A stretch of DNA of 64,000 nt from Mytilus edulis (taxonomy: Eukaryota), in NCBI RefSeq assembly GCF_963676685.1, contig NC_092346.1:102548001-102612000 (forward strand). The letters are read 5' to 3'. Position numbers: made by a program. Below are positions 27,001 through 63,000 of the stretch, piece by piece (positions within the stretch are counted from its first letter, which is position 1; every line of letters starts with the position of its first letter).

Positions 27001-30000
27001 TAAATGTTTTAATAGGTACCAACCTTTACCCTTACCGTAAACAATAGCATAACAGTCTGATTTTGAAGTTTTTTATGACATGAATAACTTTTGTGGAAAT
27101 TTATAAAATTTGAACAGAAGCTTTTTTCTATCCAAAAGACAGTGCCCAGACCAAAGTTATTTTATTTATTTTATATTTTCTTATTTTACTGGTTATGTAA
27201 GTACTTTTTAAAATAGTAGTTGTTATCAGTTTAAATCAAGTACTGTTTATAGAGAACATAGAATAACCTGTTTTTATCCAGCCATCTTCTGTAATAGACC
27301 TCCTGGTTGCTTCTTCATTGTTTAAATATCCTTTAGTAATTTGTGGCCCACACGCCCATATTTCACCAGACTCAAATGCTTTTGTTATAGTTTCTCCATT
27401 TTCAATATCAATTAGCTAAAATAATATATAAAGATTATATCAGTCTATAACTAATTAAAATTTGTGGATGTTTGGAAATTATGGGATGATTGTCAAATTG
27501 CATATCACTAGTTCTTGATTTATCGATTGATTCCTATGATGTAGGAATATAGAAGTTAAACCTTTGAGTATTCAATTATTATAGTCATACCAAGGATTTG
27601 TATAGTAAATATACAAATCCTTGGTCATACATTGAAAAGAGTGATATGCAATTCAGACCCACTGAAGCAATGGAAACATCCATTTTGATACATTACTATA
27701 CTGAGTAAAAATTTATATAATATAATTATAAAAAGTTAAAAGATTAAAATTACACTTATCATATACATTTATCTAATACAGCTTGTTAAGTTGTTAAAAG
27801 ATCTTTATAATGTGTTCTTGCATGAGATGAGTTACCTTTGATATAGTATTGGGTACTGGCTTGCCGATAGAACCATATTTATGACATCCAACAGGATCAG
27901 TGAATATTTACCTTTGATATAGTTTTGGGTACTGGCTTGCCGATAGAACCATATTTATGACATCCAACAGGATCAGTGAATATTTACCTTTGATATGGTA
28001 TTGGGTACTGGCTTGCCGATTGAACCATATTTATAACATCCAACAGGGTCAGTGAATATTTACCTTTGATATAGTTTTGGGTACTGGCTTGCCGATTGAA
28101 CCATATTTATGACATCCAACAGGATAAGTGAGTATTTACTTTTAACAGAGACATATATTGTATTATATGTCTCTGCTTTTAATATGGTATTGGGTACTGG
28201 CTTGCCGATTGAACCATATTTATGACATCCAACAGGATCAGTGAATATTTACCTTTGATATGGTATTGGGTACTGGCTTGCCGATAGAACCATATTTATA
28301 ACACCCAACAGGGTCAGTGAATATTTACCTTTGATATAGTTTTGGGTACTGGCTTGCCGATTGAACCATATTTATGACATCCAACAGGATCAGTGAATAT
28401 TTACCTTTGATATAGTATTGGGTACTGGCTTGCCGATTGAACCATATTTATAACATCCAACAGGATCAGTGAATATTTACCTTTGATATGGTATTGGGTA
28501 CTTGCTTGCCGATTGAACCATATTTATAACATCCAACAGGATAAGTGAGTATTTACTTTTAATATGGTATTGGGTACTGGCTTGCCGATTGAACCATATT
28601 TATAACATCCAACAGGATCAGTGAATATTTACCTTTGATATGGTATTGGGTACTGGCTTGCCGATTGAACCATATTTATAACATCCAACAGGATCAGTGA
28701 ATATAGCGCCACTAGTTTCTGACATTCCATAGCCTGTTCAATAAATTGGTAATCACATTTTATGACATTTTACCTTATTTTAAAAACATTGATAACTGTT
28801 TCAAATACTTATTGCTTAATTTTATTTATCTGTCAGTGTGTCACATAATTCAGGATTTTTTCTCATCTTTGCGAGGCAAGGGTAACCCTTGTCTAGAGAA
28901 GATAGAGAGAAGGGAAGTGGATCGTAACCCTTGTCTAGAGAAGATAGAGAGGAGGGAAGTGGATCGTAACCCTTAGGTAGAGAAGATAGAGAGGAGGGAA
29001 GTGGATCGTAACCCTTAGGTAGCGAAGATGTGTTTGCCTTTGATGCTTGATGTATTTTCCTTCTTCTCTTTTCTTCTCCATTTTTGTCGAGCCTGCCACT
29101 TTTGTCGCAGAAAGCTCGACATAGGGATAGTGATCCGGCGGCGGCGCCTTTAGCTAACTTCTTAAAAGCTTTATATTTTAGAAGGTGGAAGACCTGAATG
29201 CCTCATACTTTGTATATGGATGCCTCATGTTACGAAGTTTCCGTCAGCCACATGTCCAATGTTCTTGACCTCATTTTCATGGTTCAGTGACTACTTGAAA
29301 AAAAGTTAAGATTTTTTTGTAATGTTAAACTCTCTCTTATTATAAGTAGTAGGATAACTATATTTGGTATGTGCATACCTTGCAAGGTCCTTATGTCGGT
29401 CAGACAGTTTTCACTTGACCTCAACCTCATTTCATGGATCAGCAAACATGGTTAAGTTTTGATGGTCAAGTCCATATCTCAGATACTATAAGCAACAGGC
29501 CTAGGTCTAGTATATTTGGTGTATGGAAGCATTGTAAGGTGTCATCTGACCTTAACCTTATTTTCATGGTTCAGTGGTTATAGTTAAGTTTTTGTGTTTT
29601 GGTCTGTTTTATAATCCTGGTACCTTTGATAACTATTTCTTATACTGTATGCAATAGGTCTACTATATTTGGTGTATGGAATGATTGTAAGGTGTACATG
29701 TCTAGCTGGCAGGTGTCATCTGACCTTGACCTCATTTTCACGGTACAGTGGTCAAAGTTAAGTTTTTTAGTTTTGGTCTTTTTTAGCTCACCTGACCTGA
29801 AAGGTCAAGTGAGCTTTTCTCATCACTTGGGGGTCCGTCCTCCGTCGTCGTCCGGCGTCACCGTCGTCTGTAAACTTTTACAAAAATCTTCTCCTCTGAA
29901 ACTACTGGGTCAAATCTAACCAAACATGGCCAAAATCATTATTAGGGTATCTAGTTTAAAACTTGTGTCCAGTGACCCGTCCAACTAACCAAGATGGCCG

Positions 30001-60000: not shown

Positions 60001-63000
60001 ACACCCATCACCTGAAATATCAAACAGTAATTATACATGTTACAACCCTCAGGTTCAAAACGATACCCATCACCTGAAATATTAAACAGTAATTATACAT
60101 GTTACAACCCTCAGGTTCACAACGATACCCATCACCTGAAATATCAAACAGTAATTATACATGTTACAACCCTCAGGTTCACAACGATACCCATCACCTG
60201 AAATATCAAACAGTAATTATACATGTTACAACCCTCAGGTTCACAACGATACCCATCACCTGAAATATCAAACAGTAATTATACATGTTACAACCCTCAG
60301 GTTCAAAACGATACCCATCACCTGAAATATCAAACAGTAATTATACATGTTACAACCCTCAGGTTCACAACGATACCCATCACCTGAAATATTAAACAGT
60401 AATTATACATGTTACAACCCTCAGGTTCACAACGATACCCATCACCTGAAATATCAAACAGTAATTATACATGTTACAACCCTCAGGTTCACAACGATAC
60501 CCATCACCTGAAATATCAAACAGTAATTATACATGTTACAACCCTCAGGTTCAAAACGACACCCATCACCTGAAATATCAAACAGTAATTATACATGTTA
60601 CAACCCTCAGGTTCACAACGATACCCATCACCTGAAATATCAAACAGTAATTATACATGTTACAACCCTCAGGTTCACAACGATACCCATCACCTGAAAT
60701 ATCAAACAGTAATTATACATGTTACAACCCTCAGGTTCACAACGATACCCATCACCTGAAATATCAAACAGTAATTATACATGTTACAACCCTCAGGTTC
60801 ACAACGACACCCATCACCTGAAATATCAAACAGTAATTATACATGTTACAACCCTCAGGTTCAAAACGATACCCATCACCTGAAATATCAAACAGTAATT
60901 ATACATGTTACAACCCTTAGGTTCACAACGATACCCATCACCTGAAATATCAAACAGTAATTATACATGTTACAACCCTCAGGTTCACAACGACACCAAT
61001 CACCTGAAATATCAAACAGTAATTATACATGTTACAACCCTCAGGTTCACAACGATACCCATCACCTGAAATATTAAACAGTAATTATACATGTTACAAC
61101 CCTCAGGTTCACAACGATACCCATCACCTGAAATATCAAACAGTAATTATACATGTTACAACCCTCAGGTTCACAACGATACCCATCACCTGAAATATCA
61201 AACAGTAATTATACATGTTACAACCCTCAGGTTCAAAACGACACCCATCACCTGAAATATCAAACAGTAATTATACATGTTACAACCCTCAGGTTCACAA
61301 CGATACCCATCACCTGAAATATCAAACAGTAATTATACATGTTACAACCCTCAGGTTCACAACGATACCCATCACCTGAAATATCAAACAGTAATTATAC
61401 ATGTTACAACCCTCAGGTTCAAAACGACACCCATCACCTGAAATATCAAACAGTAATTATACATGTTACAACCCTCAGGTTCACAACGATACCCATCACC
61501 TGAAATATCAAACAGTAATTATACATGTTACAACCCTCAGGTTCAAAACGATACCCATCACCTGAAATATCAAACAGTAATTATACATGTTACAACCCTC
61601 AGGTTCAAAACGACACCCATCACCTGAAATATCAAACAGTAATTATACATGTTACAACCCTCAGGTTCAAAACGACACCCATCACCTGAAATATTAAACA
61701 GTCATTGTATATGTTGTAAATACGGTGCGAACACAACACTGGAACATAACTTAATTTTCATATTATAATGTAAAGACTTTGTGAAGTGTCACTTGTATTT
61801 TTGGGCATTATATAGATCGATTACATATTAAAATATGTTTTCTTCCTTAACTCACATATTCTCAACATTTTGGTGTCGTGACCAGTATTTGAAAAAGCTG
61901 ATATTGATTAGGAAAGGGGACAGAAGTGTTGTGACAAGACATCAACGAAAAATAAATAATTTGATAACATTAGAAAGTGTAAAACAAAAGAAGAAACTTT
62001 GGACTATTTAAATCAACAGATTATAAATGCAATCAGTTCAGAGGATATTGAAGAAGAAATTCTCAATACAGATGAGTGTACTTTAGACTTAGAAACTTAA
62101 AGGATAATTCGTGATTTTTCACTTTTCATCTTAATATGTTCATAATACCATAAAAAACATATTCACCAAGTTTTATTTCGATATGAAAAGTAATAAAGAA
62201 GAAAATTGGGAATTATTAATTTTATTTTTTCAAACTTCCTGACTTATGTGACGTAGTTTAAGTCTTTGAGCATGCCGGGAGTGAAATTAATCTCATTTAA
62301 GTCTTGTTCGTTAACCATCTAATAACGCTATTCAAAGCGCATCGACGACCTTTGGTGTAGCTATTAACCAACAAAAAGTAAGTGATAGCCATGCAACTTT
62401 TAAAATTAGATTGTAGGATTTATGTGTGGATTTTTTATATGAATTCTAGTAATTAAAGTGAATAATACATTAGAACATTTTTATGATTTTTTTCTTCAAA
62501 CACTTTAAACAAACATAATCAAGGTAATTAAAAGATTAGCATTATGTAATTCTAATCTTTTGATCTTCATTCAGTGACATCTAGGCGTCACGGTTCACTA
62601 TTTCAGGTGTGAACAACATTTCGTATGAATGATATACGGGAGTCAGTTATAGTTTTAGACACAGAAATGTAAGAAAAAGAATTAAAATGAATTTACGGGA
62701 GAAATAAGGTCGCACAATAACTGGATAGCTGTTGTAGCTGTTGTATATTTTTATATAATTCGCATAAGCTCACTTTTAAATGAATTATGACTTCTGATTA
62801 CTTTTGTAACGATAAAATACTGAATTATTTTAATTGAATAAATTTATAAATAAAAATAGCCTTCTAAACACGAGTGTATGAACTAAAAATTGTACTTTTT
62901 TAAATTAGAATCGGCAACCGTTAATATTTCAAACAGATTGCAATTATATAATTTAGTCCATCCAAAGCGATCTTTATTTACCTATTTAGGAATTAATGTT

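What the first reader, a model, noticed from the sequence alone, without database searches (positions are those of the whole stretch)
27832..61711. Possible general process: tandem arrays seeded at RNA-processing junctions and expanding only into the non-coding side
Seen: two unrelated genes in 64 kb each carry a 60-80 bp array whose unit straddles an exon-intron boundary (one donor, one acceptor) while the CDS stays intact. A third array (67 bp) starts ~65 nt after a candidate poly(A) signal. Inference: this may be a recurrent class of splice-junction satellites. They could arise from slippage at junction microhomologies and persist because the intact exon stays at one end. They could supply raw material for intron sliding, new microexons or dosage variation. 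I do not know whether this has been described for this lineage.
Basis: inference. Interest (0 to 1): 0.75.

Follow-up and report, generated by a model that had tools for sequence, protein, structure and literature searches.

The report
Splice-site-spanning minisatellites in two mussel genes
Two mussel genes each carry a tandem repeat that copies a splice site plus a piece of the neighbouring exon many times into the intron; this kind of repeat is already known from lancelets and humans, so it is a new example and not a new process.

Summary
The window is Mytilus (mussel) DNA. All three arrays exist.

- **Array A1:** 76 nt x 11. The unit is the last 72 nt of exon 7 of a 4-coumarate-CoA-ligase-like gene plus 4 intron bases. 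The donor is therefore repeated 11 times.
- **Array A3:** 62 nt x 45. The unit is the last 15 intron bases plus the first 47 nt of a nidogen EGF exon. The acceptor is therefore repeated 45 times.
- **Coding sequence:** both stay intact if the splice site next to the exon body is used. A spliced nidogen transcript and the M. trossulus ligase protein each show a single copy.
- **Array A2:** 67 nt x 99. It lies 65-73 nt from an AATAAA, but this fits chance (11% per array edge), and no evidence shows that site is used.
- **Chance test:** random placement with a CDS-survival filter gives two or more junction-spanning arrays in this window with P = 0.03-0.09. Enrichment is not shown.
- **Direction:** growth only into the non-coding side is geometry, not a directed process.
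- **Prior work:** the class is in print as amphioxus "mirage" minisatellites and as human boundary minisatellites (F7, 6-16, CBS, LMNB2, PDGF). I found no mollusc report.

Verdict: new member of a known kind, modest interest.

The parts
27832..28704 (-). Array A1: 11 copies of a 76-nt unit (72 nt of exon 7 plus GTAA). The first copy on the minus strand (28629-28704) is the working exon end and donor. The other 10 lie in intron 7.
   Evidence: TRF. Copies laid out in register. blastn finds 11 hits, none elsewhere in the window. 25 mismatches to consensus in 760 positions of the 10 uninterrupted copies; the working copy has 0.
28633..28733 (-). Exon 7 (101 nt) of the 4-coumarate-CoA-ligase-like (AMP-binding) gene. 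It ends AAG|GTAAAT.
   Evidence: tblastn of P0001. Boundaries. The ortholog reads ...NTISK|LVDIE with a single copy.
25424..35110 (-). Gene A: 4-coumarate-CoA-ligase-like acyl-CoA synthetase with 11 exons.
   Evidence: Pfam, 11 exon ORFs scanned: AMP-binding in 4 and AMP-binding_C in 1; two of the AMP-binding hits fall below the curated cut-off. 97% identity to the M. trossulus protein over one exon. Exons sum to 1671 nt. 10 of 10 introns are GT-AG.
28139..28182 (.). Insertion inside A1: a 30-nt perfect palindrome (28146-28175, 12-nt arms) flanked by a 7-nt direct repeat. It looks like a transposon footprint or miniature element.
   Evidence: Inverted repeat I2. Sequence context.
58911..61719 (-). 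Array A3: 45 copies of a 62-nt unit (15 nt of intron end including the AG, plus the first 47 nt of the exon), and a partial in-register copy at 61701-61719. The last copy on the minus strand (58911-58972) is the working acceptor and exon start.
   Evidence: TRF. 45 acceptor motifs, 44 of 44 spacings equal 62 nt. 35 mismatches in 2790 positions. Partial copy: 17 of 18 identical by blastn.
58808..58957 (-). Nidogen EGF exon (150 nt, phase 1 at both ends), corresponding to residues 819-868 of P0019.
   Evidence: Pfam EGF_3 and EGF. 100% identity to P0019. Boundaries.
52370..58957 (-). Gene B: the 3' part of a nidogen gene, 10 exons covering residues 819-1268 plus the stop. The next exon upstream is outside the window, so the intron holding A3 is longer than 5 kb.
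   Evidence: tblastn of P0019, 95-100% identity per exon. Pfam EGF in 3 and Ldl_recept_b in 2 of 7 ORFs. Boundaries.
42898..49605 (.). Array A2: about 99 copies of a 67-nt unit. It is intergenic or of unknown context and does not derive from any modelled exon or junction.
   Evidence: TRF. 99 blastn hits, all inside the array; both flanks are unique in the window. An open frame from the array found nothing in the protein search.
49670..49675 (-).
   Evidence: It is one of 5 minus-strand AATAAA between the stop and the array; the nearest to the stop is at 52084.

Best explanation
A1 and A3 are ordinary local minisatellites whose founding tandem duplication happened to include one splice junction. 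They are the same kind of structure as amphioxus 'mirages' and the human F7-type boundary minisatellites.

**Origin and growth.**
- A short segment (76 or 62 nt) was duplicated head to tail.
- Unequal exchange or replication slippage then raised the copy number and kept the interior copies alike.

**Why the gene survives.**
- A tandem duplication across a junction always leaves one copy joined to the body of the exon, so the gene keeps a complete exon with its splice site.
- All other copies lie in the intron as decoy donors (A1) or decoy acceptors (A3).
- The gene works as long as the spliceosome uses the exon-proximal site.
- For A1 that is the first donor, as shown experimentally for human F7 (5'-to-3' scanning).
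- For A3 that is the last acceptor, most likely because only that copy continues into a full exon with its own donor (exon definition).

**A2.** It is a separate, ordinary satellite-like array. Its nearness to an AATAAA is a coincidence.

**Shown:** the anatomy, the intact models, and single-copy mRNA or protein evidence.
**Inferred:** the duplication mechanism, which site is used in this individual, and neutrality.
For: **Anatomy**
- Units straddle one junction, and splice dinucleotides are kept in 11 of 11 and 45 of 45 copies.
- Units occur nowhere else in the window, so they derive from the local exon and were not brought in by a mobile element.

**Use of the exon-proximal site**
- P0019 is a 1268-aa nidogen encoded without interruption on a 4481-nt contig, so it comes from a spliced transcript. 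It reads ...NGFM|GDGYRCEPEGCNMYNDCD... once, with the residues of the working copy.
- The M. trossulus ligase protein has one copy across the exon 7/8 join.
- Use of a later A1 donor would meet a stop after 4 codons, and 76 and 62 are not multiples of 3.
- On the minus strand, only 2 frames of 55 aa or more touch A3. Both sit at its exon-proximal end.

**Turnover typical of minisatellites**
- The A3 interior is 98.7% uniform.
- The working edge copy has 3 private states. Two of them are shared with the partial copy at the far edge (17 of 18 by blastn).
- This matches the exclusion of cluster boundaries from homogenisation described for mirages.
- A transposon-like insertion sits inside A1.

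**No excess needed**
- Expected 0.51 junction-spanning arrays; P(>=2) = 0.084-0.087.

**Precedent**
-.
Against: - P(>=2) falls to 0.031 if the two large satellites are left out of the null. A mild excess is therefore not excluded.
- If decoy sites cost fitness, the neutral null overestimates the expectation.
- The A1 working copy is identical to the array consensus (0 mismatches). A1 therefore does not show the edge-copy divergence seen in A3.
- Neither the transcript (P0019) nor the ortholog model (P0001) is known to come from an individual that carries the arrays. Correct splicing in the presence of 45 acceptors is thus inferred, not shown.
- The partial copy upstream of A3 needs an extra event, such as a deletion, under the simple model.
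Confidence: 0.75

Rival explanations
1. One reading: a junction-specific process seeds tandem arrays at RNA-processing sites (splice donors, splice acceptors, poly(A) sites), for instance through slippage at junction microhomologies. Such arrays would then be enriched over random placement.
For: - Two junction-spanning arrays lie in one 64-kb window, with P = 0.031-0.087 under the null.
- A3 is flanked by an imperfect TGT..GATATT direct repeat one unit apart.
- In amphioxus, several genes carry such arrays, and the authors suggest a more general phenomenon.
Against: - A1 has no shared base at its breakpoints.
- Breakpoints are not at the junctions.
- 37 of 39 junctions and 19 of 21 exons have no extra copy.
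- The third 'junction' is an AATAAA at chance level.
- The window was noticed after the fact.
- Growth towards the non-coding side is a geometric necessity.
Confidence: 0.12
2. The arrays are kept by selection because the decoy sites do something. They might tune mRNA output through unproductive splicing and decay. In A3 they might act as stepwise (recursive) splice points, since every copy reads AG|GT.
For: - Each A3 copy has ...TTTCAG|GTGATG.
- Splice dinucleotides are kept in all copies.
Against: - The copies are so alike overall (1.3% and 3.3% mismatches) that conservation of the signals carries no information.
- AG|GT also follows 5 of 20 ordinary acceptors in the two models.
- GTGATG is a poor match to the donors used in these genes.
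- Three-unit RNA folds are not unusually stable (z = -1.44 and +1.80).
- No expression data exist.
Confidence: 0.06
3. One or both arrays are assembly artefacts, either expanded or wrongly placed.
For: Near-identical 62-nt copies are hard to assemble, and no independent genomic copy could be examined.
Against: - Copies carry patterned variants.
- A1 holds a unique insertion with a target-site duplication.
- The A1 edges abut unique sequence cleanly, and A3 ends in a diverged partial copy.
Confidence: 0.05

Closest known systems
Amphioxus 'mirage' minisatellites (Adh3, globins BflGb6 and BflGb9, troponin C, PGBD5)
   Same: - Tandem repeats whose unit spans an exon-intron boundary, at either the 5' or the 3' side.
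- Many copies keep AG/GT.
- Normal mRNA is still made.
- Interior copies are homogenised while boundary copies are not.
- They were proposed as raw material for new introns.

Sources: PMC3087553, section 16 read whole; PMC3902484, one passage. Canestro et al. 2002 is known to me only through these citations, because the paper is not held.
   Different: - The lineage is a mollusc, not a cephalochordate.
- Copy number is much higher in A3: 45, against 3-6 units reported for BflGb6.
- Length polymorphism and somatic instability, shown for Adh3 and BflGb6, could not be tested here.
Human boundary-spanning intronic minisatellites: F7 IVS7 (37 bp x 5-9), 6-16, CBS IVS13, LMNB2, PDGF
   Same: - The first monomer spans the exon-intron boundary, so the donor is reiterated downstream.
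- In F7 only the most upstream donor is used, by 5'-to-3' scanning.
- A1 has the same architecture, and its repeat length (76 nt) is close to PDGF (81 bp) and LMNB2 (100 bp).

Source: PMC1557585, abstract, Introduction and Discussion read.
   Different: - The F7 unit is 4 bp of exon plus 33 bp of intron. The A1 unit is 72 nt of exon plus 4 nt of intron.
- In 6-16 and CBS the two nearest pseudo-sites are also used. Whether that happens in A1 is unknown.
- The minisatellites listed there reiterate the donor; I saw no acceptor-side array like A3 among them.
Intron gain by tandem duplication across an AGGT proto-splice site (Rogers model)
   Same: A tandem duplication multiplies splice signals, and the mRNA can stay unchanged. 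Cited in PMC3087553. PMC2812944 reports that repeats at the exon-intron boundary may form novel introns (passages). PMC4974935 and PMC3488318 were seen only in a search listing.
   Different: No new intron is made here. Both arrays sit inside introns that already separate exons of the protein.
Transposon-borne satellite-like arrays of bivalves (Helentron-carried repeats in oyster, repeat-containing MITEs in Donax)
   Same: Short satellite-like arrays scattered through bivalve genomes. PMC7492417 and PMC3879986 were seen only as search listing and abstract starts.
   Different: - A1 and A3 units are copies of the adjacent exon and junction and are absent elsewhere in the window.
- This origin remains possible for A2, the 168-nt array and the 124-nt array, but was not tested.

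Membership tests
Mirage / boundary-spanning minisatellite | Head-to-tail array of a minisatellite-size unit | tested here: met
   A1 is 76 nt x 11 and A3 is 62 nt x 45.
Mirage / boundary-spanning minisatellite | The unit contains one exon-intron boundary of the host gene | tested here: met
   The A1 unit is 72 nt of exon plus 4 nt of intron at the donor. The A3 unit is 15 nt of intron plus 47 nt of exon at the acceptor. Exons were fixed by protein mapping.
Mirage / boundary-spanning minisatellite | Copies keep the splice signal | tested here: met
   GT in 11 of 11 A1 copies and AG in 45 of 45 A3 copies.
Mirage / boundary-spanning minisatellite | Regular mRNA with a single copy is made despite the array | tested here: inconclusive
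   The spliced transcript-derived protein P0019 and the ortholog P0001 show a single copy. It is unknown whether those sources carry the arrays. No RNA data exist for this individual.
Mirage / boundary-spanning minisatellite | Interior copies homogenised, boundary copies left out | tested here: inconclusive
   A3: met. The working copy has 3 private states, two shared with the far partial copy. A1: not seen. The working copy equals the consensus.
Mirage / boundary-spanning minisatellite | Copy-number polymorphism between haplotypes or individuals | not testable with these tools
   No eukaryotic genome collection was available.
F7-type donor array | Only the most upstream donor is used | not testable with these tools
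   Indirect only. Any later donor gives a stop after 4 codons, and the ortholog protein has the first-donor join.
   - Only a hexamer is present. The chance of one per array edge is 0.11.
- It lies 2.7 kb past the nidogen stop, with 4 AATAAA nearer to the stop.
- The 4481-nt transcript contig leaves 674 nt for both UTRs together (arithmetic).
Transposon-borne satellite array | The unit or its flanks recur elsewhere as part of a mobile element | tested here: not met
   Within the window, the A1, A2 and A3 units and their flanks have no other copy. This was not testable genome-wide.

The most novel reading that the evidence does not exclude
Mussel genomes hold a genome-wide excess of mirage-type arrays, beyond random placement with CDS survival. 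Very large acceptor arrays such as A3 are tolerated because every copy reads AG|GT: a splice to a decoy acceptor rebuilds a donor, so the intermediate can be re-spliced step by step until the true exon is reached. Such arrays would then be near-neutral 'ratchets'. They could shift intron boundaries, create microexons and make intron length highly polymorphic.
Probability: 0.08. Interest if true: 0.65.

Novelty: new member of a known kind. Interest (0 to 1): 0.3.

Why it matters
- **Splice-site choice.** Forty-five identical acceptors sit directly in front of a constitutive exon of a basement-membrane gene. This is a natural test of how the 3' splice site is chosen. The donor-side question was answered with the much smaller human F7 array.
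- **Annotation and mapping.** Such arrays mislead gene predictors and read mappers, because they present decoy exon fragments.
- **Intron length.** They probably make intron length polymorphic.
- **Range of the phenomenon.** They extend it from lancelets and humans to a mollusc.
- **What it does not show.** The evidence does not reveal a new mutational process.

Tried and rejected
The exact species and other isoforms in those clusters stayed unchecked.
- **Canestro et al. 2002** (the original mirage paper) is not held.
- **Protein search with an A2 open frame** found no hit among 6 candidates. This says nothing about whether A2 is a dispersed satellite.
- **Pfam on 27 further ORFs** outside the two genes gave nothing above the curated cut-offs. 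No third gene model could be added to the junction count.
- **Rfam** gave 0 matches in the window.
- **RNA folds** of three units of A3 and of A1 showed no unusual stability. I dropped the idea that structure masks the decoy sites.
- **A scan of all 21 exons** (with 30 nt of flank) for relic copies elsewhere found none apart from A1 and A3. Two 15-16-nt chance matches were ignored.
- **Orthologous loci** in other Mytilus or bivalve genomes could not be compared.
I did not see the alignments and trees of the amphioxus mirages (Additional files 4-7 of PMC3087553) or Table S3 of PMC2812944.
- **Literature on molluscs.** Five searches found no report of boundary-spanning arrays in molluscs. The one abalone intronic minisatellite found (PMC6905558, passages) is not described as spanning a boundary.
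- **Rejected: the window is human.** The best matches are Mytilus proteins.
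Full report
**What the window is.** The window has 64,000 bases and no N. GC is 27-40% per 2 kb. It is not human. An exon of the first gene is 97% identical to 'probable 4-coumarate--CoA ligase 1' of Mytilus trossulus (P0001). That search returned 18 proteins at E <= 1e-5 among 145 candidates. An exon of the second gene is 100% identical to an unnamed 1268-aa protein, P0019, whose named relatives are nidogens. That search returned 11 proteins at E <= 0.001 among 12 candidates.

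**Gene models.** P0001 maps to 11 minus-strand exons between 35110 and 25424, with 77-100% identity per exon.
- The exon lengths sum to 1671 nt, which is 557 codons.
- 10 of 10 introns are GT-AG.
- Pfam on the 11 exon ORFs found AMP-binding in 4 and AMP-binding_C in 1. Two of the AMP-binding hits are below the curated cut-off.

P0019 residues 819-1268 map to 10 minus-strand exons between 58957 and 52370, with 95-100% identity.
- 9 of 9 complete introns are GT-AG.
- Of the 7 ORFs tested, EGF families hit 3 and LDL-receptor class B hit 2.
- Residues 1-818 have no match of 85% or more in the window. The intron upstream of exon 58808-58957 therefore runs off the window and is longer than 5 kb.
- P0019 is encoded without interruption on a 4481-nt contig. 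The same residues are split over 10 exons here, so that contig must be a spliced transcript. This is inference.

**Array A1 (27832-28704).** On the minus strand, exon 7 (28733-28633) ends ...ATATCAAAG|GTAA.
- The 76-nt unit is the last 72 nt of this exon plus GTAA.
- There are 11 copies. One is interrupted by a 30-nt perfect palindrome flanked by a 7-nt direct repeat.
- All 11 keep GT. In two copies the base before it is A instead of G.
- In the 10 uninterrupted copies, 25 of 760 positions differ from the consensus. The working copy differs at none.
- The array is exactly 11 units long, and its two breakpoints share no base.
- Reading past the first donor meets a stop after 4 codons. The unit length is not a multiple of 3.
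- The ortholog protein runs ...PVPNTISK|LVDIE..., a single copy.

**Array A3 (58911-61719).** The 62-nt unit is the last 15 intron bases (ending TTTCAG) plus the first 47 nt of the EGF exon.
- There are 45 acceptor motifs, and 44 of 44 spacings equal 62 nt.
- Only 35 of 2790 positions differ from the consensus. AG is kept in 45 of 45 copies.
- The working (last) copy has three states found in no other full copy.
- Two of these reappear in a partial, in-register copy just upstream of the array. That copy is 17 of 18 identical by blastn. By eye, it matches at 15 of 19 positions.
- The interior copies therefore descend from a mutated copy that was amplified recently. Both edges keep the older state, which is the pattern described for amphioxus mirages.
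- Downstream of the unit, the exon continues TGTGATATT. This resembles the unit start TGTTTGATATT, an imperfect direct repeat one unit apart that may have helped the first duplication (by eye).
- On the minus strand, only 2 frames of 55 aa or more touch the array. Both sit at its exon-proximal end.
- P0019 reads ...NGFM|GDGYRCEPEGCNMYNDCD... once, with the residues of the working copy.

**Array A2 (42898 to about 49605).** It holds about 99 copies of 67 nt. All 99 blastn hits lie inside the array, and both flanks are unique in the window.
- Outside arrays, AATAAA occurs 1.6-1.8 times per kb per strand. A given array edge has a correctly oriented one 30-100 nt away with probability 0.11.
- The hexamer is 2.7 kb downstream of the nidogen stop. 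Four other minus-strand AATAAA lie nearer to the stop, the first at 52084.
- The 4481-nt transcript contig leaves 674 nt for both UTRs together.
- I therefore see no link between A2 and RNA processing.

**Is two more than chance?** I collapsed each of 10 arrays to one unit, giving 47,272 nt. I then placed seeds of the real periods at random and redrew any seed that fell wholly in an exon or across more than one junction.
- With 39 modelled junctions, the expected number of junction-spanning arrays is 0.51.
- P(>=2) is 0.084 by simulation and 0.087 analytically.
- Without the 168- and 124-nt satellites it is 0.031.
- The position of the junction inside the units is unremarkable (P = 0.11 and 0.49).
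- Only 2 of 21 exons have any extra copy in the window.
- A genome of 1.3-1.6 Gb (size from my own knowledge) has 20,000-25,000 such windows. Many windows would show two by chance, and this one was picked after the fact.

**Geometry.** A tandem duplication of a segment containing one junction gives exon-body + [tail+head] x n + intron, or its mirror image at an acceptor. Exactly one copy is joined to the exon body, and the others lie in the intron by definition. Expansion only into the non-coding side therefore needs no directed process. What does need explaining is why the exon-proximal site is chosen.

**What is known.**
- PMC1557585 (abstract, Introduction and Discussion read) describes the human F7 intron-7 minisatellite, whose first 37-bp monomer spans the exon boundary.
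- That paper lists 6-16, CBS, LMNB2 and PDGF as further cases. Its experiments show that the most upstream of identical donors is selected by 5'-to-3' scanning.
- PMC3087553 (section 16 read) describes amphioxus 'mirages' at both 5' and 3' exon boundaries.
- Those mirages keep AG/GT, do not disturb splicing, vary in length between haplotypes, and were proposed as a source of new introns.
- PMC3902484 (one passage) adds PGBD5 and troponin C.
- PMC2812944 (passages) reports that repeats at exon-intron boundaries may form novel introns.
- Five searches found no mollusc case.

**Mechanism, with status.**
- Shown: the anatomy, the local origin of the units, the intact models, and single-copy mRNA or protein in related data.
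- Inferred:
  - The founding duplication happened without junction-specific homology.
  - Growth and homogenisation occurred by unequal exchange or slippage.
  - The first donor is chosen as in F7.
  - The last acceptor is chosen by exon definition.
- Tested and dropped: masking by RNA structure (z = -1.44 and +1.80).
- The AG|GT in each A3 copy invites a recursive-splicing reading. However, AG|GT follows 5 of 20 ordinary acceptors here, and GTGATG is a weak donor. I keep that reading only as the novel case.

**Left open.** The following could not be tested:
- copy-number polymorphism;
- presence of the arrays in other Mytilus genomes;
- actual splice-site use in a carrier;
- genome-wide enrichment.

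**Verdict.** The interpretation as a class is right but already in print, and the proposed directed process is not supported. This is a new lineage and an unusually large acceptor array within a known kind.

Noticed in passing
window 91-4675 and 5936-6186: A large satellite (168/337-nt period, about 26 copies) that contains an 11-nt sub-repeat. A nearby 36-nt array is built on the same 11-mer theme. blastn hits of one unit span 1-6186, so the array may run off the window start.
   Followed up: partly
window 19924-21130: A 124-nt array (also read as 242 and 370 nt) carries a 280-aa open frame on the minus strand. It has no Pfam family above cut-off. One weak copy of part of it lies at 41705-41750.
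   Followed up: partly
window 28139-28182: A 30-nt perfect palindrome with 12-nt arms, flanked by a 7-nt direct repeat, is inserted in one copy of array A1. It looks like a transposon footprint or miniature element. The hAT-like look is recalled, not tested.
   Followed up: partly
window 27589-27625: A second perfect palindrome (16-nt arms, 5-nt spacer) lies in the same intron, downstream of A1.
   Followed up: no
window 6309-8424, minus strand: Three open frames share a motif (…QGFRY.KL…), suggesting repeated fragments of an unclassified mobile element. None reaches a Pfam cut-off.
   Followed up: partly
window 16800-24433, plus strand: Several open frames, for example 18401-18607 and 24218-24433 (rich in charged residues), may belong to a third gene that converges on the ligase gene. 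There was no Pfam hit. Its junctions are not in the null model.
   Followed up: partly
window 57933-58250: Gly/Pro-rich open frames on both strands lie inside the nidogen intron downstream of the EGF exon. The one frame scanned (minus strand, 57936-58250) has no Pfam family; the two plus-strand frames were not scanned.
   Followed up: no
window 28882-29016, 34374-34734, 35514-35697, 37366-37928: Further small arrays (42, 192, 25 and 20 nt). Those at 28882-29016 and 34374-34734 lie in ligase introns. Those at 35514-35697 and 37366-37928 lie upstream of the gene's start. None overlaps a modelled junction.
   Followed up: partly
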